A stretch of 64,000 nt of DNA from an uncultured Bdellovibrionales bacterium. Its GTDB lineage: Bacteria > Bdellovibrionota > FAC87 > UBA2466. The stretch is taken from contig CALCZU010000029.1 of assembly GCA_937903155.1 (NCBI GenBank), forward strand, positions 4,861 through 68,860. The letters are read 5' to 3'. Shown here piece after piece: positions 25,879 to 46,388 of the stretch. The notes under the pieces are model-generated. The model made no database searches and was not told the origin of the DNA. It worked only from the letters and a program-made list of their open reading frames with translations. Each line of letters starts with the position of its first letter. Within the stretch, counting starts at the first letter, position 1. The position numbers and the translations under genes were made by a program.

Positions 25879-26036
25879 CCTATGCCTCCGAATGTGATTT
25901 CGTAGGCATAGATCAAACACTTTCAAAAGAAAAGTTTTCGATTGGATTGCTGAGGTTAGTAAGGCGAGCCTTCTCATTTGCACCCACTAGGTGCCAGTAA
26001 TTCAATTTTGCGGTTTAGACAAAACTGATAGATACT

Positions 26037-32540: not shown

Positions 32541-32546
32541 AGGCCG

Positions 32547-33539
32547 TTACTTGGAAGAAATCGCTCGATTTACAATCGGGTTATTGTGCATCACCGGAAA
32601 TAAAGCTTCGGCCATTTTACGATGTCCTAAAGCATTTGGATGCGGGTCATTGGGTAAAGACCAAATCTCGGAGCTCGGAATGCCTCGAAGTGCCGGAAGA
32701 AGGTCGACATACTCATACCCTTCTCGCTCAGCCACTTTTTTCATTTCTTCATGAATCGAAGCGAAGGGATAATTTATAAGGTCGTGAACATCTGGCGTCA
32801 TTGCCAGATAGAGTTTAATCTTTTTCTCCCGAGCATATCTTGCAAGTCTCGCGAGAGCTTTTTCCATCTCAACTCGTCCCGGTGCGTTTGGTTCATACAC
32901 TTTACGATAGTGTTCTTCCAAACCGCCGGTTTTTTGTTTCATTTGGTTGAGCGCCATCCACAAAGTAACCGCGACTTGGCTATTTTTTAAAAACCAGTTT
33001 CCTCCGCCGGCTTCGAGTGTCTCTGCATCTCTTAGAAAATAGTGCACCAAAATATCAGTGGGATGCAGATCTTCTAATCGAGTAAGAAAACGTTCGACAT
33101 AGCGGGCGCTGTTGTAATTCCCAATTCCTGCATTTAAAAATTCGACTTCTTCTCCTGCGGATTTTAATTTATTTTCGAGTAAAGACGTCATTGTCTCTTC
33201 CTCTTTCACCCCCCAACCGAAGGTAATCGAGCTTCCTAATGCCAGAATTCTCCGCGGTGCCGGGGTTTGCGAAACAGGTCCTCCCCTTAATCCCCACTCG
33301 TTCGTCCGGAGTAAAACAGATTGCAGCGTCGCTTGCTGATTTTTTAGGTGTTCATGCCCGAGTAAGGGATTCTCACTTGGAGTTTTCAGTTCTTTTGCAT
33401 AACGCCACATCTCAATATCGTAATTCTTCATCGACGCGTTCTTCATTCGAAGAACGAACTCGGGAAAAAGAAGTGCCACACCGACACACGCAAATGTCAA
33501 AAGAGTACTGAAAACTACTTTTTTAATATGGGTTGTCAT
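32547..33539 (-). CDS. SGNH/GDSL hydrolase (AlgJ/PatB-like)
   Basis: N-terminal transmembrane helix. Block I LALGSSITFGWG and block V DPHPNALGH. Confidence 0.7.
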   Translation of the reverse strand: MTTHIKKVVFSTLLTFACVGVALLFPEFVLRMKNASMKNYDIEMWRYAKELKTPSENPLLGHEHLKNQQATLQSVLLRTNEWGLRGGPVSQTPAPRRILALGSSITFGWGVKEEETMTSLLENKLKSAGEEVEFLNAGIGNYNSARYVERFLTRLEDLHPTDILVHYFLRDAETLEAGGGNWFLKNSQVAVTLWMALNQMKQKTGGLEEHYRKVYEPNAPGRVEMEKALARLARYAREKKIKLYLAMTPDVHDLINYPFASIHEEMKKVAEREGYEYVDLLPALRGIPSSEIWSLPNDPHPNALGHRKMAEALFPVMHNNPIVNRAISSK

Positions 33540-33609
33540 AATTTTTTGGGAGGTTAGAAAGCTAGCTTTATTTTAGCATGTCCGTACTCTCATTGCGAGA
33601 TTCGACGAT

Positions 33610-34716
33610 TCATTTTTTCGTGAGATACTGACGAATCTGCTCGGCGACAAATTCATTGCCGGCGGCTGTCATATTGCCATGGCCCACTTTTTCGCCAAAG
33701 TTTCGATAGCTAAAATAAAACGTGTCATAGACGAGAAGATCTTTGGATTTTAACTCTAGTAAAGAAGGCGTTAAATCGAGGACTTCCAACGAATTCTCTC
33801 GGGCACAACGATTGACCTTCTCTAGCGCATCGATATTCCCTGCCTCTAGTTCAAAAAAAGGCTGAGAAACGACAACCGTCCGGATATTTTTAGAGCGACT
33901 CAAATCCGAAAGTAGCTTCATGATGTGACAAGAAATATCCGCATCGTTTTCTTCGGTACTCGACGGTAAGCGGTCTGCGAGCTTTACACTCCACCAGTAA
34001 TCAGGAGCCATTTTAGAAAAGAGGAACGAAAGGAAAGTGCTTCGTCCCACCACCTTGTGAACAAGAGGAAGCTCAAGCTCGTGCACGCCGGGCGATTTGG
34101 CGATGGGGACCCCTTTTAACACAAATTCACCGTTTTCTTTTTCAAAATACGGCTTTTTATCGTCTGAAAAATATCCCGGATAGTTTTTTTGTACCGTTCG
34201 CGAGATATCGTACCCGGTGTAACCAAACAGCAACGTAGTGGGTTTATAAATCTCAACTAACTGTTTTGCCCGGAGAAAAGTTTGATCCATTCCATAAGCG
34301 CACACGGCCCCATTGATCACTCGCTCCCCTATTTTGCTCTCGAGCGCACTAGCCCAGGTTTCTTCGTTAGAAACTTGATCCCCGAATGCAAAAGAGTCAC
34401 CCACGACTAAGAACGGCGTCAGTCCTTCTTTCACGGGGTTTGTGGGGGAGTTTGCGCGAATTCCGTGATCAAGCGTAGAGACTCGAGTTCGGTAATCATT
34501 CCACCGCTCTTTTACATTGGGTTCGGATACCCAACCTAAGTTCTCATCAAACGTAAAAAGGCAGCTTGCAGTATTCGATTGATGATATTTAACAAAGTAA
34601 TTGTCGAAATTAGTCAGTTCGTGTCTTCTAAAACGCAGAAGGATTTCGCCCGAAATTACCACGGCGAAAACCGTGAAGCCTATCCATACAGACGTCACAA
34701 AAACTTTTCTTTTCAT
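33610..34716 (-). CDS. SGNH-like hydrolase, second copy
   Basis: N-terminal transmembrane helix. LVVGDSFAFGDQ and a C-terminal GHGNMTAAG. Confidence 0.6.
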   Translation of the reverse strand: MKRKVFVTSVWIGFTVFAVVISGEILLRFRRHELTNFDNYFVKYHQSNTASCLFTFDENLGWVSEPNVKERWNDYRTRVSTLDHGIRANSPTNPVKEGLTPFLVVGDSFAFGDQVSNEETWASALESKIGERVINGAVCAYGMDQTFLRAKQLVEIYKPTTLLFGYTGYDISRTVQKNYPGYFSDDKKPYFEKENGEFVLKGVPIAKSPGVHELELPLVHKVVGRSTFLSFLFSKMAPDYWWSVKLADRLPSSTEENDADISCHIMKLLSDLSRSKNIRTVVVSQPFFELEAGNIDALEKVNRCARENSLEVLDLTPSLLELKSKDLLVYDTFYFSYRNFGEKVGHGNMTAAGNEFVAEQIRQYLTKK

Positions 34717-34877: not shown

Positions 34878-35081
34878 ATGAAAAAATTTCTGCTTTTAAA
34901 TCTCTGTTTCTTTTCTCTTCTTAATTTCGCCGCAATAGAAAAATCGGGGACCGCCGGAAATGAAATCAAAACCGGCTTCTTAAAAATGCTTCACGGCGCA
35001 TCGCGAGGAGTAAAAAAAGCCGCCGACAAAGTGGAAAGTAAGCTCGATCAAAAAGTAAAAAAACACGCGAAAAAAGGCTAA
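34878..35081 (+). CDS. Small Lys-rich secreted protein
   Basis: A 67-aa ORF with signal peptide MKKFLLLNLCFFSLLNFAA. Confidence 0.4.
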   Translation: MKKFLLLNLCFFSLLNFAAIEKSGTAGNEIKTGFLKMLHGASRGVKKAADKVESKLDQKVKKHAKKG

Positions 35082-35087
35082 AGACAC

Positions 35088-35849
35088 TTAACGGCTCTTC
35101 AAGATAAAATCCGCCATGATCGGCAAGTGATCCGAAAGACGCGTCCAAGGCTTCCCCTTTAAACAAGTCGCGGATTTAAATTCAATTTTCTTGAAATAAA
35201 TTCTGTCTAAATTCAAAATCGGAAATTTACTCGGAAATGTTTTCGCGTATTTTTCTTGCTGACTTAAAAAAACTTCTTCCAAATGCAATTTGCTCGAAAA
35301 CGTCTCCGTCACTTTTTTACGCCAGTCATTGAAATCGCCCGCGATGATTAGAGGAATTTTGTGCGAGACGGTTTCGTGGACGTAATTGCACAGACGATTG
35401 ACTTGGAGCTCGCGCTCAAACTGAAGTAAACCCAAATGCGCATTTAAAACATGAATTTCAATAAAACCATCTTCGTGAGGCACCGCGATTCGCCCGTGGA
35501 CGACTCCGCGAGTTTTTAGTTTTCCCACCGTAATATTTTCATTTTTGTATTCGACAAAAGGATACTTCGATAAAATCGCATTTCCGTGGTGGTGCTTCGA
35601 AAAAATAACATTTTTGAAGAACGCGGAATGCGGCCACATCTCATCTGCCAAAGCCTCGAGCTGCCCGCTGACTTCCTCTGGCCAAAGTTTAGATTTTTTT
35701 TGGTACTCTGAGCCTGCGACTTCCTGTAAAAAAACGACATCGGGTTGCAACGAGAGCAATGCCTTTTTCAAAAGACTGATCTCGTGGCCGTGTCTTTTAA
35801 CCGTAATGCCTTGATGAATATTGTAGGTGACTACTCGGAGCGATGTCAT
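35088..35849 (-). CDS. Endonuclease/exonuclease/phosphatase (EEP) family protein
   Basis: VVTYNIHQG...SDHLPIMADF. Confidence 0.8.
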   Translation of the reverse strand: MTSLRVVTYNIHQGITVKRHGHEISLLKKALLSLQPDVVFLQEVAGSEYQKKSKLWPEEVSGQLEALADEMWPHSAFFKNVIFSKHHHGNAILSKYPFVEYKNENITVGKLKTRGVVHGRIAVPHEDGFIEIHVLNAHLGLLQFERELQVNRLCNYVHETVSHKIPLIIAGDFNDWRKKVTETFSSKLHLEEVFLSQQEKYAKTFPSKFPILNLDRIYFKKIEFKSATCLKGKPWTRLSDHLPIMADFILKSR

Positions 35850-37039
35850 AGCGCCCTATTATACAACGCGGAATACTTTTGAACACCTTGTTCTATCGAA
35901 AAATACTTTCGAGCCGTCTCGATACACCGCTGGGCTAACAATGGATCGAGAGAGAGATCGAGCCAGAGTTTGACAGTCTCATCTATATCCTTCTCCGAAA
36001 ACGATGGGGACAGGACGCCCACTCGATTTTCGCCAATAAGAAGGTCAGAATCTCCCACGCCAAGGTTGGTCACAACGGAAACGCCACATCCCAAAACTTC
36101 GGCAAACTTCGTGGGACTACTCGCTTGCTTTGAAAAACTCGGACGAATGAAATAGACATTCACCTGCATTTGGTTAATCCAGTAGGGCATTTCATCCGAA
36201 TCCGCACTCACTAAAAGATAGTCTGACGGTTCAATACCGAAATCTTTAAGGTGATTTTTAATCTTTTCGTGTTCTCCCCGGTTTAAAATTAAAAAAAGAG
36301 GCGCCGGAGACGGTTTTAATTTTTGAAAAGCCAAAAACGCTCGGATACTTGCTGGAAAATCATACCAAAGTCCCACACTGCCCGAGTACCCGACGACAAA
36401 CCGATCCGAAAACTTCTTCTCAACTTCCAAAGGTTTAAATTTCCCAAGATCCGCACATGTGGGAATCACTTCGATCTCGTCTGCCGTTTTATTCGAGTTA
36501 CGGAAACTTAAAACCACGTCTTTTCCTTTTTGGGTCAATGAAACGATTGCCGTCGCGTCTTTTATAAAACGTTTTTCGAGCCATTTTGTGACACGATAAA
36601 TCTTCGATTTTTTTCGCCACAGCCCACCTTCAATTCTTTCGTCCGCCCAAAATCCGCGCATATCAAAAAGAAGTCGCGTTCTGAAAACCATTTTTACGAA
36701 CCATCCCATAAACATCGCCACATAGCTACGTGCGTGAATCAAACGAATCCCGTTAAAAAGAACGAGTAGAAATGAAACGACGACTCCTTGGAAAATATCG
36801 AAAGCGGTTGCGGGAATGGTCGGACTTTTATGATAGGTCAAAGGGATCCAAAAAATCCCGCAGTCTCGGGCCTGCTTCCTCAGAGATTGAAAATTCTCAG
36901 TTCCCTTCTGATCCTTTTTCTCAAAACTCACGAGAAAAATTTTGAATTCTCGTGAAAGCGACTTTAAATAGACGAACACCTGAGAGTAGCCCAAAGCATC
37001 GGTCATTCCGTCATAACTGAGGTAAAGCACTTTTTTCAT
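35846..37039 (-). CDS. Glycosyltransferase family 4 (group 1)
   Basis: GT-B C-terminal EX7E region KFAEVLGCGVSVV. ATGA overlap with the EEP gene. Confidence 0.75.
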   Translation of the reverse strand: MKKVLYLSYDGMTDALGYSQVFVYLKSLSREFKIFLVSFEKKDQKGTENFQSLRKQARDCGIFWIPLTYHKSPTIPATAFDIFQGVVVSFLLVLFNGIRLIHARSYVAMFMGWFVKMVFRTRLLFDMRGFWADERIEGGLWRKKSKIYRVTKWLEKRFIKDATAIVSLTQKGKDVVLSFRNSNKTADEIEVIPTCADLGKFKPLEVEKKFSDRFVVGYSGSVGLWYDFPASIRAFLAFQKLKPSPAPLFLILNRGEHEKIKNHLKDFGIEPSDYLLVSADSDEMPYWINQMQVNVYFIRPSFSKQASSPTKFAEVLGCGVSVVTNLGVGDSDLLIGENRVGVLSPSFSEKDIDETVKLWLDLSLDPLLAQRCIETARKYFSIEQGVQKYSALYNRAL

Positions 37040-37042
37040 CGG

Positions 37043-37768
37043 TTAATCTTCAAACCGAAAACGCAGAAGCGTCCATACTGCGGTAAAACCATCTGACATC
37101 TTAATTTTTTTTCCTTCTTCTTTCGAACGCGGAGAATACTGGATGGGCACTTCGCGAATTTCATATCCTTGTTTTAAAAGCTTTGCGGTCAATTCATGAT
37201 CCGTTTCAAATCCCGCCGTTTTCACTTTCAAACCTCTTAAAAATTCCATCGGATAAATCTTATAGGCTGTCAGCGTATCGGTCAGCCAATTTCCATAAAG
37301 CATAAAAGTCAAAGAAGAGAGCGCCACTCCCGCCCCGTAAGGGCCAAGACCTTGTTCCGGATGCTTCCCGGGTAAAATAAACGTCTTTTGCTTTTGGTAA
37401 CGGCCCAGCGTACGGCTTCCGTAGACCGCTAACTTTTTTTTGAAATCGAGAGATCTCAACATCGTAAGATAATCGTTGGGATCGTATTCGAGATCTGCAT
37501 CTTGGACCAAAACATAATCGCCCGTCGCTTCCTCAATTCCTCTTTGAACCGCACGGCCTTTTCCTTGATTCGGAACTTGCTGAAAAGTTCGGACGTCCTG
37601 AAACCGACTCGCCTCTCGAAAAGTCGCGTCTTTCGACCCGTCGTCGACGAGAATCACTTCTTTGCTAAAGCCTAAAGTCTCTGTCGGAACCGACAAAACC
37701 CTTTCAAGAAGTTTTGCGATGTACTTTTCTTCGTTATACGCAGGGATGACGATCGAAAGCTTCTTCAT
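37043..37768 (-). CDS. GT2 glycosyltransferase (Dpm1-like)
   Basis: Start MKKLSIVIPAYNEE at 37768. DDGSKD and QDADLEYD motifs. ATGA overlap with the upstream stop. Confidence 0.75.
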   Translation of the reverse strand: MKKLSIVIPAYNEEKYIAKLLERVLSVPTETLGFSKEVILVDDGSKDATFREASRFQDVRTFQQVPNQGKGRAVQRGIEEATGDYVLVQDADLEYDPNDYLTMLRSLDFKKKLAVYGSRTLGRYQKQKTFILPGKHPEQGLGPYGAGVALSSLTFMLYGNWLTDTLTAYKIYPMEFLRGLKVKTAGFETDHELTAKLLKQGYEIREVPIQYSPRSKEEGKKIKMSDGFTAVWTLLRFRFED

Positions 37769-39741
37769 GAATGGCTCCAGCGTGTGGAAACCAATGTCCA
37801 TAAAGATTGAATTCCATCCCAGAACGTCGACTTTTTACCCGCTTTTTTAGTTCTCGGGGCGTATTCCACCGGAAGTTCCAAAATAAACACTTTTTTCTTC
37901 GCAAGTTTGGCAATAATTTCGGTCTCGAGATTCATTCCGCTACTTTTTAAAGCCAGCGACGTTAAAAGCCGCCCTTCAAACGCTTTGATCCCTGTCAGTG
38001 GGTCCGAAACGAAACGATTGTAAAGGACTTGCGAAATCAGACTTAAAATCATCCCGCCGTATTTTCCTACGATAAACCCAAAATAATTATCTCGATAAAT
38101 CTCTTTAATCCGATCATTGAGGTCGATGCACTTGATGGCGCGACTTCCAAAGACGACCTTAAATTCATTCTGAACAATCGCCATCACGACTTTGGGAAGG
38201 TCCGAAACAGAGTACTCTCCATCGGCGTGAAAAAAGACGATGATATTGCCAAGCGCTTGTTCAATCCCGTAGCGAAGAACGTCACCCCTTCCCGAACCTC
38301 TCGGGAGTTCAAAGACACGAATATTGCTTTCGTTTTTCGCGTAGAGCAAAGTCAAGTCAGTCGAGCCCCCATCGACAAAGATAATTTCTTTTGCGAGGCC
38401 CAAAGTCTGAAAATTGAGAAGAACAAGATCATGTAAGACTCTTCTCACCGTTTTCTCTTCGTTGAGTGCCGGAACGATGATCGAGACCATGTAGGGCATG
38501 GCTTTTAGATTCGTCTGAACTTTTTGGTTGGCTATCGATAAAAGCTCATCGACGACTTTGCCACCCAAATGCACTCCCGGGTTTGACTCCCAATTGATTC
38601 CGACATTTTTCTCGTCTTTGAGTAAATCAGATGAGGCCGTGATATAGACTTGGTCCGAATCACCTTCAATTTTTTGAAAAAAACTTTTTGTGATGAGATC
38701 ATTTAATTTAAAAGCGGTTCTACCTTTGCGATTCACATAGTAGACAAGCTTTTGGGTTAATGACTCCACCGTTTCACCCTGAATTTCAAAATCTTTGCGG
38801 ATATTGGCGACAAAAACTTTTTCAGCTACCGTATTAGACGCAATCGATTCCGAGATTTTCTCAGTGAGATATGAAGGAAAAAGCGAAGAGTGTTGAGTCC
38901 CCGGTCCGTAGATAATGAGTTTCGCATCTTTTAAGGCCTGCTCAGCGCGAGGATTGATTTCGACCCGTTTCTCAAGCGTTCGCAACGCAACGGCTTTTTC
39001 TTCAATCGAGAGTTTTTTAATTTGCGAAAGCGTTTCCGTAGATAAGTAGTTTTCGAGCAGGAAAATCTCTTTCACTCGGCTATTGCCTTGTTCACCGACT
39101 AAAGCCGCTTCGTCTTCAAGAATACGGCCATCCTCTTTTAGACCGACCAGGACTCGATTACTGCCATCGGTAATATTTAAGACTTCCGTATCGATTCGAC
39201 AAAGTTTTGAGAAACGCTCGACCGCGCGATTAAAATCTCGATCTTTTAAATACGCTCCTGCGAACGCGAGATTTCCTAATGAGCAATCCGCGTAGTTCAA
39301 AACACCTCGCGAGCTTTTTTTGTACTCCAAGAAACTTTTCAATAGATCGCCGAGCTCCCCTGCACTTTCGACACTGAGATTTAAATAGTGTTCTCGTAGG
39401 AATTTAAGTTCGGGAATTTCACCGCGTTCAAGATTAAGAAGATCTTTCTCCGCCTTTTCGTTCGAAATATCTTTAGGGAAGCGAAACTCAACCAGTTCGT
39501 GAAGGCTTGAAAAAGCCTTTTCATTTTTGGCAATGAGGCGGGAACAATTTTTTCGAACATCGGAAGGCCCGAGCATGCCTGGGATAAAACGCCGTAACAT
39601 TCCCGTCGATAAGCCGTCATCATAAGTATTGACGAGCAAGGTCAGCTGAATCTGTGGATGCTTGGAGAGAACCTCGATAATCGTCCCGGCTCCCCGGCCT
39701 CCACAAAAAAGAACGACATTGAGTTTATTTTGCGTGTTCAT
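37765..39741 (-). CDS. YvcK/CofD-like (UPF0052) domain fused to GT2 glycosyltransferase
   Basis: N-terminal VVLFCGGRGAGT ... VNTYDDGLSTGMLRR matches YvcK ADDGGSSGRLR. C-terminal IIVPALNEE, FVDGGSTD and FFHADGE. Confidence 0.75.
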   Translation of the reverse strand: MNTQNKLNVVLFCGGRGAGTIIEVLSKHPQIQLTLLVNTYDDGLSTGMLRRFIPGMLGPSDVRKNCSRLIAKNEKAFSSLHELVEFRFPKDISNEKAEKDLLNLERGEIPELKFLREHYLNLSVESAGELGDLLKSFLEYKKSSRGVLNYADCSLGNLAFAGAYLKDRDFNRAVERFSKLCRIDTEVLNITDGSNRVLVGLKEDGRILEDEAALVGEQGNSRVKEIFLLENYLSTETLSQIKKLSIEEKAVALRTLEKRVEINPRAEQALKDAKLIIYGPGTQHSSLFPSYLTEKISESIASNTVAEKVFVANIRKDFEIQGETVESLTQKLVYYVNRKGRTAFKLNDLITKSFFQKIEGDSDQVYITASSDLLKDEKNVGINWESNPGVHLGGKVVDELLSIANQKVQTNLKAMPYMVSIIVPALNEEKTVRRVLHDLVLLNFQTLGLAKEIIFVDGGSTDLTLLYAKNESNIRVFELPRGSGRGDVLRYGIEQALGNIIVFFHADGEYSVSDLPKVVMAIVQNEFKVVFGSRAIKCIDLNDRIKEIYRDNYFGFIVGKYGGMILSLISQVLYNRFVSDPLTGIKAFEGRLLTSLALKSSGMNLETEIIAKLAKKKVFILELPVEYAPRTKKAGKKSTFWDGIQSLWTLVSTRWSHS

Positions 39742-40526
39742 CGTTCACTCAAAATTCTTTCGGCCTGTTTTGCATCCTCTAACGTATTGACGCCGAGAGT
39801 TTCTTCTTCTGAATCCAAACGAAGAGTCAGAACTTGATTCATTTTGTCATTAAACTTGGGAAGCAGCGGCAATAAATTATATTCTTCCGTATTCTTCCCA
39901 AGACTTTTTTCAGTTTTTAAGACGTTAAATAGAAATTCTGACTCAAAGCAGAACACGCCGCAATCATTTTCTCCAATTTCTTCGTGAATTTCGCCTTCGC
40001 GCTTTTGTCGAACTCGGATGAGTTTTCCGGCGTCGTCTCTGTCAAAACAGATATAGGGATTTTTTTTCAGATAAGAAGGGAGAGTCAATTTTGCTTTGTG
40101 TTTTTCCAAAAGGCTCTCGCAAAAAATCAAAGTGCTCGAACGGATGGTCACCTGATCTCCCCAAACGACCAAGGAATGAGGAGTATGGACCTTCGACTCG
40201 GCCGTCAAAACGGCGTCCGCCATCCCGCGCGGATAGGTTTGAACCACGTAGTCCACAAAATTTTGCTTTTTTAAACGCACGACTTCAGATTCGATTTCTT
40301 TCAGTCCATTCGGTGAAACGACCAGCACCGTTTTCGCGCAGCAATCTTCTAAAGTCGTCAACAGCCAATCTAAAATACTTCTGCCTAAGATGGGGTAAAG
40401 CGCTTTCGGTTTTGAATAATTTAAGCGCGTTCCCATTCCCGCCATTGGAACAATAGCCGTCCAATCCCGCTTTTGAATGGAATGTTTTTTCCCACGCAAT
40501 TCATTTAAGTTGAAAATTGGATTCAT
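39738..40526 (-). CDS. Sugar-phosphate nucleotidyltransferase
   Basis: AIVPMAGMGTRL. ATGA overlap. Confidence 0.7.
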   Translation of the reverse strand: MNPIFNLNELRGKKHSIQKRDWTAIVPMAGMGTRLNYSKPKALYPILGRSILDWLLTTLEDCCAKTVLVVSPNGLKEIESEVVRLKKQNFVDYVVQTYPRGMADAVLTAESKVHTPHSLVVWGDQVTIRSSTLIFCESLLEKHKAKLTLPSYLKKNPYICFDRDDAGKLIRVRQKREGEIHEEIGENDCGVFCFESEFLFNVLKTEKSLGKNTEEYNLLPLLPKFNDKMNQVLTLRLDSEEETLGVNTLEDAKQAERILSER

Positions 40527-41164
40527 AAAATCTGAAGCAGTTCCGAAAGTTGATAAAACCCTTTTCGAACTTTAGGTTCTCCTTGAGGCAATTGACTGAG
40601 AGTTCCGAGTCTCACAAATACGTCCATGCCCGCGGCTAAGGCAGATTGAATTCCCGATAAAGCGTCTTCGATCACCACACAATTTTGCGGGGTCATCGCC
40701 AGTTTTTCAGCTGCTTTTAAATAGATTTCAGGCGCGGGTTTCGCCTGCTTCACATCTTCTCCGCTTAAAATCGTTTTCCAAAGACCTCGAGTCTTTGAGT
40801 TTTCGACAAACCATTGTACCAGTCTCGAGCTCGCAGAACTTGCAAGCGCGAGTGGGTAGCGCTGGGAGAGAGCAGATAGAACCTCGAAAATTTCTTTTCC
40901 GATGACGGTAAAGTTTGAGAGTTCTTCAAATGCGAGTTTTCGTTTTTTAAAAATACAGGCTTTGAGTTCTTCTTCGGAAATTTCGTATTTGGCTTCTTTG
41001 AAAAGTTTTCTCATTGCGGTTTCGGTATGCATTCCCGCGATTTCGGGATAATCCCAGTTTTTGACGCCATAAGGACCCATTACTTTTCGAAACGCAGACT
41101 CGTGCGCCGGGGTGGAATCTAAAAGCACTCCGTCCATATCAAAAATAACTGCATCGTACTTCAT
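40523..41164 (-). CDS. HAD-IA hydrolase (beta-phosphoglucomutase-like)
   Basis: AVIFDMDGVLLDS. Confidence 0.8.
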   Translation of the reverse strand: MKYDAVIFDMDGVLLDSTPAHESAFRKVMGPYGVKNWDYPEIAGMHTETAMRKLFKEAKYEISEEELKACIFKKRKLAFEELSNFTVIGKEIFEVLSALSQRYPLALASSASSRLVQWFVENSKTRGLWKTILSGEDVKQAKPAPEIYLKAAEKLAMTPQNCVVIEDALSGIQSALAAGMDVFVRLGTLSQLPQGEPKVRKGFYQLSELLQIL

Positions 41165-42153
41165 GAAATCCGTCTGGCCAGGGCTAAAGATTGCCCCATC
41201 TGATAATTCAATGGGAGACGGCTCAAACGCACTTTTTCGCTGACTTTTTTGATTCCATTAAAGAAAGGAAGATACTGCCCCGCTCTCTCGCAGACATAAC
41301 CAAAAGACAAGGTCTGCCAGTAGGGAGAGGTTTCCACTAATTCAAATCCACATTTTGCGAGAAGCTTCTTTAAACTTTTATTGGTGAAGTAAAGTAAGTG
41401 GACATTAAGAAAAAATGGCCACTTTTCGCTTAAAATTTTGCGAGCATAACTTCCATAGTCGGGATAATTCACTACCAGTACGCCATCTTTTTTCAAAAGC
41501 TTCGCGCAACGTTTCAGTTCGTCTTCAGGATGATAAAGGTGTTCGAGAACATCCCAAAGGGTAATGACGTCGAAAGAGCCTTCTTCAAAATTTTGATCCG
41601 ATAAGGTCCCCGGACGCAAATCAACGCCGTAATGTTTTTTCCCCCACTCACACATCCAACGACTGGGTTCAACGCCCACGGCGTCACAGCCAAGATCTTT
41701 TGCCGCTTTTAAAAATGCGCCGGCAGCGGATCCGATATCCAAAACTCTCAGACCCTTCGCCTCTTTGCCCGAATGCGAAAGCACCTTTTTAAGACTTTTT
41801 TTGAAAGTGGCAATCCGGTATTCGTTTTGCGCCGCAAATCGGTCGTCTTCGGCATTCGAGTACGATTCGTAAGCGAGTGATTCTTTGATTCTCGGGTTTA
41901 AATAGGTCAGCTCGCAATCTTTGCAAGTCACTAACTGGTCCCAGAGCGAACTATCGCTTGAGCTGTGGTAAATCTTCAGAAGCTTGTCTTTATTCAAATC
42001 GGACGGATAACGAGCTTTTCGGACGACACGATAGTCGGTCGAGCTGCAAACGGGACACCTCACCGTCTCGGTGAGCGAATCGATTTGAGAGGGAGAACTT
42101 TGAAACAAGGTTTTGTCTTCAGGTTTATTCTGCTTATCGAGCTGCGATTTCAT
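41161..42153 (-). CDS. Class I SAM-dependent methyltransferase with N-terminal Zn-ribbon
   Basis: CPVC...CKDC. Motif I VLDIGSAAGAF. Confidence 0.75.
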   Translation of the reverse strand: MKSQLDKQNKPEDKTLFQSSPSQIDSLTETVRCPVCSSTDYRVVRKARYPSDLNKDKLLKIYHSSSDSSLWDQLVTCKDCELTYLNPRIKESLAYESYSNAEDDRFAAQNEYRIATFKKSLKKVLSHSGKEAKGLRVLDIGSAAGAFLKAAKDLGCDAVGVEPSRWMCEWGKKHYGVDLRPGTLSDQNFEEGSFDVITLWDVLEHLYHPEDELKRCAKLLKKDGVLVVNYPDYGSYARKILSEKWPFFLNVHLLYFTNKSLKKLLAKCGFELVETSPYWQTLSFGYVCERAGQYLPFFNGIKKVSEKVRLSRLPLNYQMGQSLALARRIS

Positions 42154-42215
42154 TGACTTGCCTTATTCTTTTCAATAGTTTTTACCTAATATTTTACCAG
42201 AAGGACACTTAGAAA

Positions 42216-43235
42216 ATGCGTAAAAAGGCTCTGATTACTGGAATTACTGGACAAGACGGATCTTACCTTGCGGAACTTCTCTTGAGCAAAGGCTATGAAG
42301 TGCACGGAATCATCCGCAGATCTTCTTCCATTAATACTGCGCGTCTAGAAAACTGCTACCAAGATCCTCACGAAGAAGAAGTTCGTTTTTTTCTTCACTA
42401 TGGCGATTTAGTAGATGGAAGCTCCCTTGAAAAAATCATTCACACGATTATGCCCGACGAAGTTTACAACCTCGGTGCCCAGAGCCACGTCCGGGTGAGC
42501 TTCGATATGCCGTTGTACACGCTCGATACCGTTGCCATGTCGACGGCGCGAATTTTAGAGGCGTTGCGCCATTTTCGAAATGAAAAACAAATCCGGTTTT
42601 ATCAAGCCAGTTCCTCCGAAATGTATGGAGGCGTAAATCCAACGGCATTGTCTGAAACGTCTAGTTTTGTGCCTCGTTCACCGTATGCTTGCGGAAAACT
42701 TTTGGGTTACTACCTCACAATCAATTACCGCGAAGCTTACGGACTTCATGCTTCGAATGGAATCTTGTTTAATCACGAATCTCCAAGACGCGGCGAGACT
42801 TTCGTCACTCACAAGATTACTCGCGGGCTTTCAAAAATCATCGCGAAGAAACAAAAGAAACTTTACTTAGGGAATTTAGATTCCAAACGCGATTGGGGAT
42901 ATGCGAAGGATTATGTCGAAGCCATGTGGCTCATGCTTCAGCAACCCAAAGGAGATGATTATGTCGTCGCTACGGGAGAAACTCACTCCGTCAAAGAATT
43001 CTTAGACGAAGCGTTTGGTTCGGTTTCTTTGGACTGGAAAAAATATGTCGAGATTGATCCACGTTACTACCGTCCGACTGAAGTCGATGTGCTTCTTGGC
43101 GACTATTCTAAAGCTAAAAAAGTCTTAAATTGGGAACCCAAAACCAAGTTTAAAGAACTGGTACGAATCATGGTCGAGGAAGATTTAAGAAAAGAAGGAC
43201 TCGATCCCGAAAAGTACATGAAATCGCAAAGCTAA
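42216..43235 (+). CDS. gmd: GDP-mannose 4,6-dehydratase
   Basis: [33 protein letters not shown] and the catalytic YxxxK. Confidence 0.9.
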
Positions 43236-43328
43236 AATTTTCGCCTATTCTTTCTGCCGGTCGCAAGCTATAGAAAAAGAGTCACAAATGGGAGTGACAT
43301 TTTCATTCCGTTTTAAAAGGAGATAGCA

Positions 43329-44687
43329 ATGGCAGAAGAAACTTTGGGCGCCGGTCTCACAGTCCCTTCTTTTAAGACGAAGACTTTTTCAAAAAATATT
43401 GAACACTCGCCGCAGTTCCGCAAACGACGCGCGATTAACTGGCTCACCCTCGGCTTTACTTACTCCGCGATGTACATGGGGCGGTACAATCTCTCCTTCG
43501 CAAATAAAGCCTTGTCCCAAGCATACGGCTGGGACAAAACGCAAATCGGTGCGCTCATTACGGCTGCCCTTTCCATTTACGGATTTTCGGCGATCTTCAA
43601 CGGTCCCATCACCGATAAAATCGGGGGTCGAAAGGCGATGCTCATCGGGGCGACGGGCACGGTGGTTTTCAATCTCCTGTTTGGTTTGGGAGCCTACATG
43701 GGCTTTCTGGGGACGGGGACTTTGCTCTTAACTTATTTTGCGAGCGTCTGGGCTTTAAATTCTTATTTCCAGTCGTTTAGCGCCTTGTCTTTAATTAAAG
43801 TAAATGCCTCATGGTTTCATATTCGGGAGCGAGGCGTCTTTTCGGCCATCTTCGGATCGATGATTCAGAGCGGGCGAGCACTTATCTTTTTTGTGGGAGG
43901 AATTCTCGTCACAATTCTCCCCTGGCAGTGGGTTTTCTTCGTACCTGCGATCATCGTCGCGTTCATGAGTTATTTGACGTTTCTCTTCGTCAAAAATAAT
44001 CCTGAGGATTGTCAGTTGCCGGCGCTCGATGTGGAAGACGCTTCGAGTGGAGACACCGAAAAAGTCACTGTCGGATACGTGCTTAAAAAAGTTCTCACCA
44101 ATCCTATCACTCTCACCATTGCGGTGGCGGAATTTTGCACCGGTCTGGTTCGTCACGGTTTTGAACAATGGTTTCCTCGTTACATGCTCGAAGCCCAGCA
44201 CATGACCCTCGAATCTTCCATCTTTCAAAAAGGCGCATTGTCCGTTGTTTGCGCGGGAATTTTAGGAGCCTTTTTTGCCGGAACGATTTCGGACTGGGTT
44301 TTTAAAGGACGCCGTACTCCGGTAGCGTTTCTCGGATATTTTGTTCAAATCATCTGTCTTGCGGTCGTTTGGAAAGCCCCTTCCATTGAGTGGATTATCG
44401 GCGCTTTTATTTTGAATTCGTTTGCAATCAGTGTCGTTCATTCGATGCTGTCCGGTACGGCTTCAATGGATTTTGGTGGAAAGAAAGCTGCGGCGACAGC
44501 GGTGGGAATTTTTGATGGAATGCAATATTTAGGCGGATCTGTTGTGGGAATCGGGATGGGTTATCTTTTAGATAACTATGGATGGTCCGCGTGGGGCCCG
44601 AGCATGATTTCATTCTCATTCATTGGAGCCGTGCTCATGCTATTTATTTGGAACGCGCGTCCAAAAACAAAAGCCGCGGCACACTAA
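43329..44687 (+). CDS. MFS transporter, organophosphate:Pi antiporter (GlpT/UhpC-like) family
   Basis: Twelve transmembrane helices. The patterns R.N..FA... and WF.IRERG resemble GlpT. Confidence 0.7.
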   Translation: MAEETLGAGLTVPSFKTKTFSKNIEHSPQFRKRRAINWLTLGFTYSAMYMGRYNLSFANKALSQAYGWDKTQIGALITAALSIYGFSAIFNGPITDKIGGRKAMLIGATGTVVFNLLFGLGAYMGFLGTGTLLLTYFASVWALNSYFQSFSALSLIKVNASWFHIRERGVFSAIFGSMIQSGRALIFFVGGILVTILPWQWVFFVPAIIVAFMSYLTFLFVKNNPEDCQLPALDVEDASSGDTEKVTVGYVLKKVLTNPITLTIAVAEFCTGLVRHGFEQWFPRYMLEAQHMTLESSIFQKGALSVVCAGILGAFFAGTISDWVFKGRRTPVAFLGYFVQIICLAVVWKAPSIEWIIGAFILNSFAISVVHSMLSGTASMDFGGKKAAATAVGIFDGMQYLGGSVVGIGMGYLLDNYGWSAWGPSMISFSFIGAVLMLFIWNARPKTKAAAH

Positions 44688-44741: not shown

Positions 44742-46388
44742 ATGGTTCTCGCCGATTCGCATTTTCTTTTTATTGACTGCCAAACAACGGGTTTGACTGC
44801 CGAAAAAGCCGAAATCATCGAGCTGGGCTGGAGCTTTTCGTTTGATCAGGAAGAAATTCAAACAAGATTAATCCGTCCCGTCCGCCTGGAAAGCATTCCC
44901 AAAAAAGTGCTGACCATGACAGGAATCAACGAAAAAGAACTTGAGTCGGCTGAGAGTGCGGAGATAATTTGGAAACAGTTTCGCGACGCCGTCGAGGCGG
45001 CTCCCGTCCCTCTCACAGCGATCGTCATTCATTACGCTGCCTTCGAGACGCGTTTTTTAAATCATCTTCGAAAAGAATTCGGAGACTCTCCCGTTTTTGC
45101 ACTTCCTACTTTTTGCACCTATCAAATTGCTAAAAAACTTTACCCCGAGCTTCCTGCGCAGACTTTAAGAGCGCTGGGCGGGCATTTTGATTTTTCTCTA
45201 TCTGAGAAAACGCGCGCTTTCGATCATACTCTCGCCACTCAAAAAATCTGGTCAAAACTCTTAAACGAATTAAAAGAACAATCGATTCACACCGTGGAGG
45301 ATCTTCTTTCTTGGAAAAGTCGAAAGGCAAAAAAGCGCAAAATTTCTCGAAAGTATCTAGTCGAACGAGAGACCCGTCTCGGTTTTCCAGAGGGACCTGG
45401 AATTTACGAAATGCATTCCCGCAGTGGAAAAATTCTTTATATCGGAAAAGCTACCTGTCTCAATTCAAGGGTGAATAGTTATTTCCGGCAGAAACATTCA
45501 AAGAGGTCGCGAATCAATGAGCTTATGGCCCAAGTCGTCGAGGTTAAAGTCCGACAAACGCAGACTCCGCTCGAGGCAGCACTTCTCGAGAGCGATCGGA
45601 TTAAGGAAATCGAACCCCCTTACAACCATTCGCTCAAATCGAATTCTCGTAAGATCCTTTTTTTATCTCCTCAATTGGAGGACATTTCCCCGGTGTATGA
45701 ATTTAAACATCCCGTGGGTCCTTTTACCCACGACCAACCTTTTAATGGATTAGAGCGTCTTCTCCACGCGCAAAAAGGAGAATGGGAAGAACTCGACCCA
45801 TTTACAATGAAACATACGCCTGAAGAATTGAAAGATGCCGTCGAAACTCGTCTTTCAGCTTTAGGCTACGATCTCTCAAACTTAAATCTCCTAAAACTCT
45901 TGAGAGCGGGTAAAAAAATTCAACTGACGCCTAGATTCTCGAACGAAGTGACAGATGAAATTACAGAAGAAGTGGAAGAATCCTCCGAAGAATCGGTCGA
46001 AAGAAAATTATCAAACGCAGTTCGAAGTGTTCATGAAAAGCAATGGATCTGCTGGTTGATGGAATCGCGAGTCTTATGGAAACTTGATACGGGAGATTTC
46101 CGTTTTCTCTTACTCCAAAATGGAAAAATTACGGAGTCGGGATTTATAAAATCCCCCGAGCTGTTGGAACCGCTCAAACGCAAACGCTCGCCTCTTCAAA
46201 ACCGGAAGCTCAGAATCGATTTAAAAACTTACGATCGAATGCGTATTTTAATGAGTGAACTTTCAATGTTCGCAAGGCGAGGGATCGAAATCCAAGTTCA
46301 GTTTTCGCCGACGAGAACGTACGCGACAACGCCCAACGGTTCGCCCTCTTGGTGCACGCGCACTTTAAACAGGGAGAGAAATCATTGA
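44742..46388 (+). CDS. DnaQ-like exonuclease domain + GIY-YIG (UvrC/Cho-like) nuclease protein
   Basis: N-terminal FLFIDCQTTGL is a DEDD fold with Q in place of E. The GIY-YIG motif GIYEMHSRSGKILYIGKATCLNSRVNSYF...PYNHSLK follows. The C-terminal 250 aa are unknown. Confidence 0.75.
   Translation: MVLADSHFLFIDCQTTGLTAEKAEIIELGWSFSFDQEEIQTRLIRPVRLESIPKKVLTMTGINEKELESAESAEIIWKQFRDAVEAAPVPLTAIVIHYAAFETRFLNHLRKEFGDSPVFALPTFCTYQIAKKLYPELPAQTLRALGGHFDFSLSEKTRAFDHTLATQKIWSKLLNELKEQSIHTVEDLLSWKSRKAKKRKISRKYLVERETRLGFPEGPGIYEMHSRSGKILYIGKATCLNSRVNSYFRQKHSKRSRINELMAQVVEVKVRQTQTPLEAALLESDRIKEIEPPYNHSLKSNSRKILFLSPQLEDISPVYEFKHPVGPFTHDQPFNGLERLLHAQKGEWEELDPFTMKHTPEELKDAVETRLSALGYDLSNLNLLKLLRAGKKIQLTPRFSNEVTDEITEEVEESSEESVERKLSNAVRSVHEKQWICWLMESRVLWKLDTGDFRFLLLQNGKITESGFIKSPELLEPLKRKRSPLQNRKLRIDLKTYDRMRILMSELSMFARRGIEIQVQFSPTRTYATTPNGSPSWCTRTLNRERNH

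What the first reader, a model, noticed from the sequence alone, without database searches (positions are those of the whole stretch)
35088..44687. Coupled glycan operon centred on a YvcK/CofD-like::GT2 fusion, with nucleotidyltransferase, HAD, methyltransferase, gmd and an organophosphate transporter
Seven genes (41161 down to 35088, minus strand) are joined by 4-nt ATGA-type overlaps, with GT4 a 3-nt gap downstream of GT2. In order they are SAM-MTase, HAD (beta-PGM-like), sugar-phosphate NTase, YvcK/CofD-like + GT2 fusion, GT2, GT4 and EEP. They run divergently from gmd and a GlpT/UhpC-like OPA transporter. YvcK/UPF0052 proteins bind UDP-sugars, and CofD transfers a phospho-moiety from a nucleotide-activated donor. 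Fusing such a domain to a GT2 next to a nucleotidyltransferase and a phosphatase/mutase suggests synthesis of an unusual phosphodiester-linked or methylated 6-deoxyhexose glycoconjugate.
Basis: partly seen in the sequence, partly recalled or inferred. Interest (0 to 1): 0.6.

Follow-up and report, generated by a model that had tools for sequence, protein, structure and literature searches.

The report
YvcK-like::GT2 fusion glycan cassette
A real seven-gene operon in a Bdellovibrio-like bacterium is built around a widespread but unstudied enzyme set: a phosphatase-type enzyme, a sugar-activating enzyme, a YvcK-like domain fused to a sugar transferase, and a second sugar transferase, which probably makes a carrier-lipid-linked sugar decoration and could clarify what YvcK-family proteins do.

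Summary
Seven minus-strand genes (42153 to 35088) are joined by five ATGA overlaps and one 3-nt gap, and they face gmd and an OPA-type MFS gene. All domain calls are confirmed, including CofD/UPF0052 (PF01933) plus GT2 in one 658-aa protein.

Comparison with relatives changes the picture:
- The conserved unit is HAD, GlmU-like NTase, CofD-family::GT2 and a paralogous GT2. It occurs in 356 of 185,579 species genomes across at least 10 phyla.
- It also occurs as NTase-CofD-GT2, HAD-NTase and HAD-NTase-CofD-GT2 single proteins, and unfused in other gene orders.
- MTase is present in about half of 80 related loci. GT4, EEP, gmd and OPA are shared only with the sister genome.
- The N-domain is YvcK-type, not CofD proper.
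- Both GT2s are DPMS/ArnC/GtrB-type.
- Relatives often carry GtrA and GT-C genes next door. The window carries neither.

Best reading: a cassette that makes a polyprenyl-phosphate-linked sugar donor or decoration, in which the YvcK-like domain processes the NDP-sugar made by the NTase. This may be CofD-style phosphodiester formation. The chemistry is inferred, not shown. I found no publication on this fusion. It is a new variant of a known kind, of moderately high interest.

The parts
41161..42153 (-). SAM-dependent methyltransferase (330 aa) with an N-terminal CxxC...CxxC segment. It is the first gene of the operon and an optional accessory of the cassette.
   Evidence: PF13489, 97.6 bits. 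Weak similarity to the TcaB9 sugar 3-C-methyltransferases, including the N-terminal region (E about 1e-6). Present about 2.4 kb upstream of the fusion in roughly half of 80 related loci and absent from the sister locus L006.
40523..41164 (-). HAD-IA hydrolase of the beta-PGM/YqaB type (213 aa). A core cassette member. It could be a sugar-phosphate phosphatase, a mutase or a pyrophosphatase.
   Evidence: PF13419, 104.5 bits. TIGR02009 123 bits (cut-off 153) and bPGM equivalog 95 bits (cut-off 189). Best PDB match is the TM_1254 sugar phosphatase at 80.8 bits, against about 57 bits for beta-PGM. Conserved about 1.45 kb upstream in most loci. Fused to the NTase in about 10 loci and in P0139.
39738..40526 (-). 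Sugar-1-phosphate nucleotidyltransferase resembling the GlmU N-terminal domain (262 aa). A core cassette member.
   Evidence: PF12804, 52.8 bits. GlmU models score up to 86 bits over residues 24-262. PDB GlmU structures match at E 4e-13. Found immediately upstream of the fusion in nearly all loci and fused to it in about 14 of 80 loci.
38527..39741 (-). N-terminal YvcK/UPF0052-like (CofD-superfamily) domain of the fusion protein, residues 1 to about 405. It carries helical insertions of about 80 and 30 residues relative to YvcK.
   Evidence: PF01933, 103.6 bits. AF2 model pLDDT 87.9, pTM 0.81. Foldseek TM 0.82-0.86 to YvcK structures 2ppv, 2hzb and 2o2z. Profile search gives 58-85 bits to YvcK structures and 13 bits to CofD 3c3d. 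Invariant residues include G14, G15, G17, D41, D42, S45, T46, R50, D61, R63, K64, R87, Q283, S285, S286, K308, D317 and H391.
37765..38526 (-). C-terminal GT2 (GT-A) domain of the fusion protein, residues about 410-658, of the DPMS/ArnC/GtrB type. No transmembrane segment; amphipathic C-terminal helix.
   Evidence: PF00535, 83.8 bits. Best NCBIfam match is AglJ at 86 bits. Aligns with Pyrococcus DPMS over residues 17-246, including the DPxTG motif and the R...GKK motif. Foldseek hits include ArnC, DPMS, GpgS and GtrB. D457, D462, D507 and E509 are invariant.
37043..37768 (-). Stand-alone GT2 (241 aa), a paralogue of the fusion's GT2 domain with a canonical DAD motif. A core cassette member.
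   Evidence: PF00535, 100.7 bits. 33% identity to the fusion's GT2 domain over its whole length, E 7e-43. PDB matches are DPMS, ArnC and GtrB. A relative lies about 2 kb after the fusion's start, on the same strand, in roughly 65 of the 85 loci compared by tblastn. By ORF clustering 55 of 79 loci have one starting within -250 to +400 nt of the fusion's stop.
35846..37039 (-). GT-B/GT4-like glycosyltransferase (397 aa). A lineage-specific addition.
   Evidence: Sub-threshold PF13579, PF13439 and PF00534 hits in the N-to-C order expected of a GT4. TIGR04063 at E 3e-12. No PDB sequence match. Orthologue found only in L006, at 62% identity.
35088..35849 (-). Endonuclease/exonuclease/phosphatase-family protein (253 aa). 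Last gene of the operon and a lineage-specific addition.
   Evidence: PF03372, 54.6 bits. Orthologue found only in L006, at 85% identity. No informative PDB relative.
42216..43235 (+). GDP-mannose 4,6-dehydratase. It is a divergent neighbour and is not part of the conserved cassette.
   Evidence: TIGR01472, 530.9 bits, above the 415 cut-off. Hits of 50% identity or more occur only in L006 (93%), L001/L010 (71%) and L025 (50%).
43329..44687 (+). OPA-like MFS transporter. It is a neighbour and is not part of the conserved cassette.
   Evidence: MFS_1, 138.8 bits. PgtP, GlpT and UhpC models all score below their cut-offs. An orthologue is seen only in L006, at 84% identity.

Best explanation
**What it is.** The operon is a local elaboration of a widespread, uncharacterised cassette. 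The cassette consists of a HAD hydrolase, a GlmU-like nucleotidyltransferase, a YvcK-like domain fused to a DPMS-type GT2, and a second paralogous GT2.

**Proposed working (inferred).**
1. The NTase makes a UDP- or dTDP-sugar from a sugar-1-phosphate. The HAD either supplies that sugar phosphate, removes a phosphate later, or hydrolyses pyrophosphate.
2. The two membrane-peripheral GT2 catalytic domains transfer sugar from the NDP-sugar onto a phosphate-bearing acceptor at the inner face of the membrane. That acceptor is most likely polyprenyl phosphate, as with DPMS, ArnC and GtrB.
3. The YvcK-like domain sits in the same polypeptide between the NTase and the GT2. It binds the NDP-sugar and carries out a substitution at its diphosphate. 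My preferred version is CofD-style transfer of the sugar-1-phosphate (or another phospho-group) onto a hydroxyl of the lipid-linked sugar, releasing NMP and leaving a phosphodiester-linked substituent.
4. In this window, the MTase methylates the sugar, the GT4-like enzyme adds a further sugar, and the EEP protein acts as a phosphoesterase on the product.
5. In many relatives a GtrA flippase and a GT-C enzyme then deliver the unit to an extracytoplasmic glycan. In this window that delivery step is not encoded nearby.

**Shown versus inferred.** Shown: gene and domain identities, fusions, synteny, fold and conserved motifs. Inferred: every substrate, the lipid acceptor and the chemistry of the YvcK-like domain.
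For: **Functional unity of the four parts**
- The conserved order and spacing of HAD, NTase, fusion and GT2b hold in nearly all of 85 loci.
- Triple, double and quadruple fusions exist.
- The same four functions recur unfused and reordered in L093. NTase, CofD-like and HAD stay together in L090 even without a GT2.

**NDP-sugar theme**
- The NTase is closest to GlmU.
- YvcK proteins bind UDP-Glc and UDP-GlcNAc (PMC5482804). GlmR makes UDP-GlcNAc and needs its D40/D41 pair (PMC10128056). D41 and D42 are invariant here.

**Catalytic rather than scaffold role**
- About 40 invariant residues in the N-domain persist across more than 10 phyla. They include family-specific R63, K64, R87, K308 and H391.

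**Polyprenyl-phosphate GT2 type**
- The domain aligns along its full length with DPMS, including the DPxTG and R..GKK motifs and a C-terminal amphipathic helix.
- Foldseek hits include ArnC, DPMS and GtrB. The best NCBIfam match is AglJ.

**Delivery machinery in relatives**
- GtrA (PF04138) is present in 13 loci. PMT_2 and YfhO GT-C proteins are also found.
- Large proteins with 7 or more transmembrane segments start within 3 kb after GT2b in 26 of 47 loci. Their density is 0.205 per kb against 0.069 per kb elsewhere (Poisson P about 2e-7).

**Precedent**
- Three-component extracytoplasmic glycosylation is established, as are HAD domains that dephosphorylate after a phospho-sugar transfer (PMC11127046).
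Against: - No substrate is known.
- The window itself has no GtrA, GT-C, flippase or initiating transferase anywhere in its 64 kb.
- The GT2 domains have no transmembrane helices. They match soluble GpgS and MpgS about as well structurally.
- The N-domain is YvcK-like, and no phosphodiester-forming activity has been shown in that branch. CofD proper is only a remote relative.
- The residue aligned with GlmR N198 appears to be Ser here (alignment).
- A second NTase-like activity, or a purely regulatory UDP-sugar sensor, would fit the fusion equally well.
- The transmembrane counting is a crude hydropathy rule.
Confidence: 0.4

Rival explanations
1. GlmR-like reading. The YvcK-like domain is a second uridylyltransferase or a UDP-sugar-binding hand-off or sensor domain. 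It feeds or gates the fused GT2, and no phosphodiester is formed. The cassette simply makes one or two polyprenyl-phosphate sugars, using two NDP-sugar sources and two GT2s.
For: The N-domain is nearest to YvcK by sequence and fold. The only demonstrated properties of that branch are UDP-sugar binding and UDP-GlcNAc synthesis (PMC5482804, PMC10128056). The DD motif is invariant. Two NTase-like modules and two GT2 modules would pair symmetrically.
Against: A dedicated GlmU-like NTase is always adjacent or fused, so a second one looks redundant. NTase, CofD-like and HAD persist together without any GT2 in L090. Many invariant basic residues are specific to this subfamily. The residue aligned with GlmR N198 is not conserved.
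Confidence: 0.28
2. Soluble-product reading. The GT2 domains act like GpgS or MpgS on a small phosphorylated acceptor such as 3-phosphoglycerate or glycerol phosphate. The HAD removes the phosphate, following the synthase/phosphatase logic of compatible solutes or the primer of methylated cytoplasmic polysaccharides. GT4 and MTase extend and methylate the product, and the OPA transporter supplies the acceptor.
For: GpgS and MpgS are among the top structural and sequence hits. The GT2s lack transmembrane segments. The pairing of a HAD with a GT is classical for such pathways (established knowledge of GpgS/GpgP, MpgS/MpgP and OtsA/OtsB). The window has no flippase or GT-C. An OPA gene is adjacent.
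Against: GpgS model NF010496 scores 47 bits against a cut-off of 262. Only DPMS aligns along the full length, including its acceptor-loop and R..K motifs. The cassette sits in polysaccharide loci with Wzx, Wzt, GtrA and GT-C in relatives. OPA is not conserved with the module.
Confidence: 0.15
3. NTase plus a CofD-like domain make a phosphodiester-linked, methylated 6-deoxyhexose glycoconjugate. gmd supplies the deoxysugar and the OPA transporter imports an organophosphate precursor.
For: Divergent adjacency with a 62-nt spacer. The same gmd-OPA arrangement occurs in sister locus L006. The MTase has weak similarity to C-methyltransferases that act on NDP-4-keto sugars.
Against: gmd and OPA are absent from nearly all other loci, and the MTase occurs mostly without any gmd-like gene. 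L006 has gmd but no MTase. The NTase is GlmU-like, not a mannose-1-phosphate guanylyltransferase. No enzyme that would process the gmd product lies in the operon.
Confidence: 0.1

Closest known systems
YvcK/GlmR/CuvA (UPF0052, TIGR01826)
   Same: Same fold (Foldseek TM 0.82-0.86). Shares the GGxG loop, the DDG(G/L)S(S/T)G motif and the GPG(S/T)xxxS motif. Linked to UDP-sugar metabolism.
   Different: Scores 89 bits against a cut-off of 196. Carries large helical insertions. Fused to a GT2 and often to an NTase and a HAD. Lacks the yvcJ-glmR-whiA context. Has many extra invariant basic residues.
CofC/CofD (FbiD/FbiA) of F420 biosynthesis
   Same: The pairing and order of a nucleotidyltransferase followed by a PF01933-family domain. 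The chemistry proposed here (attack of a hydroxyl on an NDP-activated phospho-donor, releasing NMP) is the CofD reaction.
   Different: CofD proper is only a remote match (13 bits, E 0.29). The NTase is GlmU-like, not CofC. No F420 genes are present, and the context is glycan synthesis.
Polyprenyl-phosphate glycosyltransferases (DPMS, ArnC, GtrB, AglJ, PpgS) and three-component Gtr/Arn/YfhO-type glycosylation systems
   Same: GT-A domain aligning along its full length with DPMS, with shared acceptor-side motifs. GtrA and GT-C neighbours occur in many relatives.
   Different: No transmembrane helices. Two paralogous GT2 modules. Additional YvcK-like, NTase and HAD modules in the cytoplasmic half. 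The window lacks the flippase and the GT-C enzyme.
Cobalamin nucleotide-loop assembly (CobU/CobY, CobS, CobC) and gPRT-PRP ribofuranosyltransferases
   Same: The triad of a nucleotidyltransferase, a phospho-group transferase and a phosphatase. HAD phosphatase domains that tidy up after a phospho-sugar transfer are also known (PMC11127046).
   Different: The protein families are unrelated apart from the MobA-like NTase fold and the HAD fold. This is an analogy of logic only.
GpgS/GpgP and MpgS/MpgP compatible-solute synthases
   Same: A GT-A synthase resembling the GT2 domains, paired with a HAD-type phosphatase.
   Different: Below family cut-offs. The DPMS-type motifs and the polysaccharide-locus context argue against membership.

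Membership tests
CofD (LPPG:FO 2-phospho-L-lactate transferase) | Match to Pfam PF01933 above the gathering score | tested here: met
   103.6 bits against a cut-off of 30. PF01933 covers both the CofD and YvcK branches, so this does not separate them.
CofD (LPPG:FO 2-phospho-L-lactate transferase) | Specific similarity to CofD/FbiA proteins | tested here: not met
   No CofD equivalog appears among the NCBIfam hits. The profile of the N-domain scores 13.4 bits (E 0.29) against M. mazei CofD 3c3d, and only over the N-terminal glycine loop.
CofD (LPPG:FO 2-phospho-L-lactate transferase) | F420 pathway context (CofC, CofE, FO synthase) | tested here: not met
   None is seen in the operon or in the flanking genes that were annotated. 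The NTase is GlmU-like.
YvcK/GlmR (TIGR01826) | Score above the curated cut-off | tested here: not met
   88.9 bits against 196.
YvcK/GlmR (TIGR01826) | YvcK fold | tested here: met
   Foldseek TM (target-normalised) 0.76-0.86 to 2ppv, 2hzb, 2o2z and 2q7x (0.82-0.86 for the first three), at E down to 5e-16. Model pLDDT is 87.9.
YvcK/GlmR (TIGR01826) | Residues required for GlmR uridylyltransferase activity (D40, D41, N198 in L. monocytogenes; PMC10128056) | tested here: inconclusive
   D41 and D42 are invariant. The position aligned with the Asn of the YvcK 'LPN' segment is Ser290 (alignment). The mapping goes through B. halodurans YvcK, not the Listeria protein.
YvcK/GlmR (TIGR01826) | UDP-sugar binding or uridylyltransferase activity | not testable with these tools
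   Needs biochemistry.
GAK-system CofD-like protein (TIGR04357) | Score above the curated cut-off | tested here: not met
   98.4 bits against 340. A true GAK member on a plasmid has an unrelated context.
Polyprenyl-phosphate GT2 (DPMS/ArnC/GtrB type) | GT-A domain with a DxD-type metal motif | tested here: met
   PF00535 at 83.8 and 100.7 bits. D507-x-E509 is invariant in the fusion, and GT2b has DAD.
Polyprenyl-phosphate GT2 (DPMS/ArnC/GtrB type) | Acceptor-side motifs shared with DPMS (DPxS/TG loop, R..K motif before the interface helix) | tested here: met
   The alignment to 5mlz covers residues 17-246, including both motifs. D580, K586, F588, R630, G635, K636 and K637 are invariant. That these motifs define the class is from my own knowledge.
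Polyprenyl-phosphate GT2 (DPMS/ArnC/GtrB type) | Membrane anchoring (transmembrane helices or a partner) and a polyprenyl-phosphate acceptor | tested here: inconclusive
   No transmembrane helix is present, only an amphipathic C-terminal helix (H640-654). Acceptor use is not testable here.
Polyprenyl-phosphate GT2 (DPMS/ArnC/GtrB type) | Equivalog-level match to a characterised member (AglJ, PpgS, ArnC) | tested here: not met
   AglJ 86-88 bits against 325. PpgS 42-50 bits against 370. ArnC 27-51 bits against 529.
Three-component extracytoplasmic glycosylation system | Flippase (GtrA or MATE type) and a GT-C transferase encoded with the synthase | tested here: not met
   Neither is present in the 64-kb window. 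Both occur in many relatives.
GpgS (GT81) with GpgP | Score above the curated cut-off for glucosyl-3-phosphoglycerate synthase | tested here: not met
   NF010496 at 47-48 bits against 262.
GDP-mannose 4,6-dehydratase (neighbouring gene) | Equivalog score | tested here: met
   TIGR01472 at 530.9 bits against 415.

The most novel reading that the evidence does not exclude
The YvcK-like domain is a previously unrecognised class of NDP-sugar-dependent phosphotransferase. It would be a CofD-type enzyme working on UDP-sugars, installing a sugar-1-phosphate or other phosphodiester substituent on a lipid-linked sugar. That would give the first clear catalytic paradigm for the UPF0052/YvcK branch and define a new way to make phosphodiester-decorated glycans. 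It would be analogous to Stealth or LicD enzymes but evolutionarily unrelated to them.
Probability: 0.25. Interest if true: 0.8.

Novelty: new variant of a known kind. Interest (0 to 1): 0.6.

Why it matters
The function of YvcK/GlmR/CuvA proteins is still debated. They are important for envelope integrity and virulence in Bacillus, Listeria and mycobacteria, and proposals include a UDP-sugar sensor, a GlmS activator and an accessory uridylyltransferase.

This subfamily has its YvcK-like domain covalently placed between a GlmU-like nucleotidyltransferase and a DPMS-type glycosyltransferase, and sometimes also joined to a HAD. It comprises 322 clusters at 50% identity with E of 1e-30 or better, and occurs in 356 species genomes across at least 10 phyla.

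That arrangement gives a directly testable biochemical setting. One purified protein, UDP-sugars and undecaprenyl phosphate would be enough to ask whether NMP or NDP is released and what product forms.

The cassette also marks an unrecognised glycan-decoration route in poorly studied phyla, including Bdellovibrionota, Acidobacteriota, Elusimicrobiota, Patescibacteria and Magnetococcales. It is sometimes plasmid-borne.

Tried and rejected
- **Exact-sequence look-up.** Looking up the window's own fusion protein (P0001) found no contig.
- **Literature.** Searches for CofD or UPF0052 with glycosyltransferase, fusion or polysaccharide terms found nothing on this architecture.
- **Plasmid collection.** Only relatives at about 25% identity turned up, in unrelated contexts.
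- **Promoter and terminator scan.** The scan of 34.5-45 kb was not above shuffled background for promoter-like sites and only about 1.4 sd above it for terminator-like sites, so it says nothing about operon boundaries.
- **Radical SAM gene.** A B12-type radical SAM gene accompanies the MTase in about a quarter of loci. I searched for it in the window and it is absent. Its best NCBIfam matches (P-methyltransferase at 130 bits, HpnJ at 123 bits) are far below their cut-offs, so I did not assign it a reaction.
- **gmd and OPA as parts of the system.** Rejected on synteny grounds.
- **HAD as a true beta-phosphoglucomutase.** It falls below the equivalog cut-off and is closer to sugar phosphatases. 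This remains unresolved.
- **MBOAT/SGNH genes as part of the operon.** They are separated by a convergent 67-aa ORF and are not conserved with the cassette.

Full report
**1. Observation**

The ORF list and junction sequences confirm seven co-directional minus-strand genes running from 42153 down to 35088.

| Gene | Coordinates |
|---|---|
| MTase | 41161-42153 |
| HAD | 40523-41164 |
| NTase | 39738-40526 |
| 658-aa fusion | 37765-39741 |
| GT2b | 37043-37768 |
| GT4-like | 35846-37039 |
| EEP | 35088-35849 |

- Five junctions are ATGA overlaps. The fusion/GT2b junction counts only if GT2b starts at its second ATG (37768).
- GT2b and GT4 are separated by 3 nt.
- gmd (42216-43235) and an OPA-like MFS gene (43329-44687) diverge from the MTase across a 62-nt spacer.
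The operon actually begins at 42153.
- A convergent 67-aa ORF with a signal-peptide-like N-terminus (34878-35081, plus strand) lies just past the EEP stop. The MBOAT/SGNH genes further on are therefore a separate unit.

**2. Domain identities**

- Pfam and NCBIfam confirm every label.
- The fusion carries PF01933 (CofD family, 103.6 bits, residues 9-339) and PF00535 (GT2, 83.8 bits, residues 420-546).
- gmd passes its equivalog cut-off (531 against 415 bits).
- The OPA protein is MFS/OPA-like but scores below every equivalog cut-off.
- The GT4 label rests on sub-threshold GT-B hits in the right order and on TIGR04063 at E 3e-12. It has no PDB sequence match.

**3. What the fusion's two halves are**

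- An AlphaFold model built from 34 homologues is confident, with pLDDT 87.9 and pTM 0.81.
- Foldseek places the N-domain on YvcK/UPF0052 structures, with TM 0.76-0.86 to 2ppv, 2hzb, 2o2z and 2q7x (0.82-0.86 for the first three).
- It places the C-domain on ArnC, DPMS, GpgS, MpgS and GtrB.
- A profile of the N-domain scores 58-85 bits on YvcK structures. It scores only 13 bits (E 0.29) on M. mazei CofD.
- The domain is therefore YvcK-type, with helical insertions, and is not CofD proper.
- It fails the curated cut-offs of YvcK (89 against 196) and of the GAK-system CofD-like family (98 against 340). It represents its own clade.
- The GT2 domain aligns with Pyrococcus dolichyl-phosphate mannose synthase over the whole catalytic domain. 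This includes a DPxTG loop and an R..GKK motif followed by an amphipathic C-terminal helix.
- GT2b is a paralogue with the same motifs (33% identity, E 7e-43).
- Neither GT2 has a transmembrane helix.

**4. Distribution and the true conserved unit**

- The fusion has more than 120 full-length homologues at 43-68% identity.
- The N-domain alone finds 322 cluster representatives at E of 1e-30 or better among 1.84 billion proteins. Most are 640-700 aa.
- About ten of the top hits are 925-963 aa with the architecture NTase-CofD-GT2. One of 1148 aa is HAD-NTase-CofD-GT2.
- A genome scan found relatives in 356 of 185,579 species genomes. The listed hits span Bdellovibrionota, Acidobacteriota, Magnetococcales, Elusimicrobiota, Patescibacteria, Myxococcota, Margulisiibacteriota, Dependentiae and Alpha- and Gammaproteobacteria.
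- Planctomycetota and Verrucomicrobiota carriers appeared in the protein search.
- The nearest relative is a Pseudobdellovibrionaceae MAG. The window therefore probably comes from that family.
- A tblastn matrix over 85 loci shows HAD at about -1.45 kb, NTase at about -0.78 kb and GT2b at about +2.0 kb from the fusion start. They are on the same strand in nearly all loci.
- The MTase is present in about half of the loci.
- A B12-type radical SAM gene lies upstream of the MTase in about a quarter of the loci. It is absent from the window.
- GT4, EEP and the OPA gene have orthologues only in the sister locus L006, which itself lacks the MTase. gmd has close matches only in L006 (93%), L001/L010 (71%) and L025 (50%).
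- Unfused members keep the same partners. L093 has GT2, CofD-like, HAD, NTase and GT4. L090 has NTase, CofD-like, DUF6734 and HAD. L091 has CofD-like followed by HAD.
- HAD-NTase fusions occur in about ten Acidobacteria loci.
- Taken together, this is strong Rosetta-stone and synteny evidence that HAD, NTase, the YvcK-like domain and GT2 act in one pathway.

**5. Context in relatives**

- The cassette usually sits in polysaccharide loci with Wzx-type flippases, Wzt ABC transporters, sugar-modifying enzymes and further GTs.
- Directly after GT2b, many loci encode a GtrA-family protein (PF04138, 13 loci). Many also encode large polytopic proteins that match PMT_2 or YfhO (GT-C), or have no Pfam match.
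- Such proteins, with 7 or more predicted transmembrane segments, start within 3 kb downstream in 26 of 47 loci that have enough sequence.
- Their density there is three times that in the remaining flanks (0.205 against 0.069 per kb, Poisson P about 2e-7). The hydropathy rule used is crude.
- This is the signature of three-component extracytoplasmic glycosylation: a polyprenyl-phosphate sugar synthase, a flippase and a GT-C (PMC11127046).
- The window has none of these partners within its 64 kb.
- Its flanks instead hold unrelated genes: Fic, a fatty-acid cis/trans isomerase, DNA-repair genes, a GT8, and an MBOAT with two SGNH genes.

**6. Mechanism**

*Shown:*
- gene and domain identities, fusions, synteny, fold and invariant residues.

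*Inferred:*
- The GlmU-like NTase makes a UDP- or dTDP-sugar.
- The two DPMS-type GT2 modules load sugar onto a phosphate-bearing acceptor, most likely polyprenyl phosphate.
- The YvcK-like domain acts on the NDP-sugar.

*Known activities in the superfamily:*
- YvcK binds UDP-Glc and UDP-GlcNAc (PMC5482804).
- GlmR synthesises UDP-GlcNAc and needs its DD motif (PMC10128056). D41 and D42 are invariant here.
- CofD transfers a phospho-group from a GDP-activated donor to a hydroxyl, releasing GMP (established knowledge).

*Why I favour a CofD-style phosphotransfer (about 0.35 of the probability for this step):*
- A dedicated NTase is always fused or adjacent, as CofC is to CofD.
- The NTase, CofD-like and HAD triad survives without a GT2. 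This resembles the CobU/CobS/CobC logic, and HAD domains that dephosphorylate after phospho-sugar transfer are known (PMC11127046).
- The subfamily has added invariant basic residues (R63, K64, R87, K308, H391) that would suit a second phosphorylated ligand.

*Alternatives for this step:*
- A GlmR-like uridylyltransferase or hand-off role (about 0.3).
- A purely regulatory role (about 0.15).

*Other roles:*
- The HAD could be a phosphatase, a mutase or a pyrophosphatase. It is closer to sugar phosphatases than to beta-PGM.
- In this window, the MTase, the GT4-like enzyme and the EEP protein would methylate, extend and trim the product.

**7. Rivals**

- A soluble GpgS/GpgP-type product remains possible. 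The GT2s lack transmembrane helices, GpgS is a good structural match and this window lacks delivery genes.
- Against it are the DPMS-type motifs, the sub-threshold GpgS score (47 against 262) and the polysaccharide, GtrA and GT-C context of relatives.
They are not supported as parts of the system.

**8. Novelty and verdict**

- Sources annotate these proteins only as 'CofD family' or 'YvcK family'. I found no paper on this architecture.
- It is best described as a new variant of a known kind. It is a polyprenyl-phosphate-GT-based glycan decoration cassette with an unprecedented YvcK-like catalytic or ligand module and a built-in NDP-sugar supply.
- Its main value is as a tractable entry point to the unresolved biochemistry of the YvcK family.
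- Interest is 0.6. Confidence in the overall model is 0.4.

Noticed in passing
window 31152-34716 (minus strand): An MBOAT protein (DltB/AlgI-like, TIGR04091 at 166 bits, below cut-off) is followed by two membrane-anchored SGNH/GDSL-like proteins. This is the gene set typical of extracytoplasmic O-acylation of a glycan. It lies next to the operon but is separated from it by a convergent small ORF, and it is not conserved with the cassette.
   Followed up: partly
window 34878-35081 (plus strand): A 67-aa ORF with a signal-peptide-like N-terminus and a lysine-rich tail. It is convergent with the end of the operon.
   Followed up: no
L004 6073-7587; also L001, L002, L088: A B12-type radical SAM protein of about 505 aa is paired with the Zn-ribbon MTase directly upstream of the cassette in about a quarter of loci. 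Its best matches are the Sden_1168 P-methyltransferase family and HpnJ, both far below cut-off. This suggests an extra C- or P-methylation or a rearrangement in those lineages. It is absent from the window.
   Followed up: partly
L072 (Bryobacterales bacterium F-183 plasmid pF-183-2); L031, L049, L051, L066 (Patescibacteria) compared with L017, L019, L067, L069 (Bdellovibrionales): The cassette occurs on a 40.9-kb plasmid. Patescibacteria and Bdellovibrionales loci share the same extended order (Wzx-like, MTase, HAD, NTase/fusion, GT2b, GtrA, 560-aa membrane protein). This suggests horizontal transfer.
   Followed up: no
L090 and L091: Stand-alone members of the same CofD-like clade sit with HAD (with or without NTase and a DUF6734 protein). 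One lies next to extracellular contractile injection system genes and the other inside a conjugative or primase-bearing element. The clade is therefore not restricted to polysaccharide loci.
   Followed up: no
window 44742-46388 and 46349-48784 (plus strand): An RNase_T exonuclease fused to a GIY-YIG domain. It is followed, with overlapping ORFs, by a DinG/XPD-like helicase (DEAD_2, Helicase_C_2).
   Followed up: partly
window 23434-25983 (minus strand): A fatty-acid cis/trans isomerase (PF06934, 592 bits). Nearby are a GT8 glycosyltransferase (21578-22492) and a Fic/DUF4172 protein (28633-29739).
   Followed up: no
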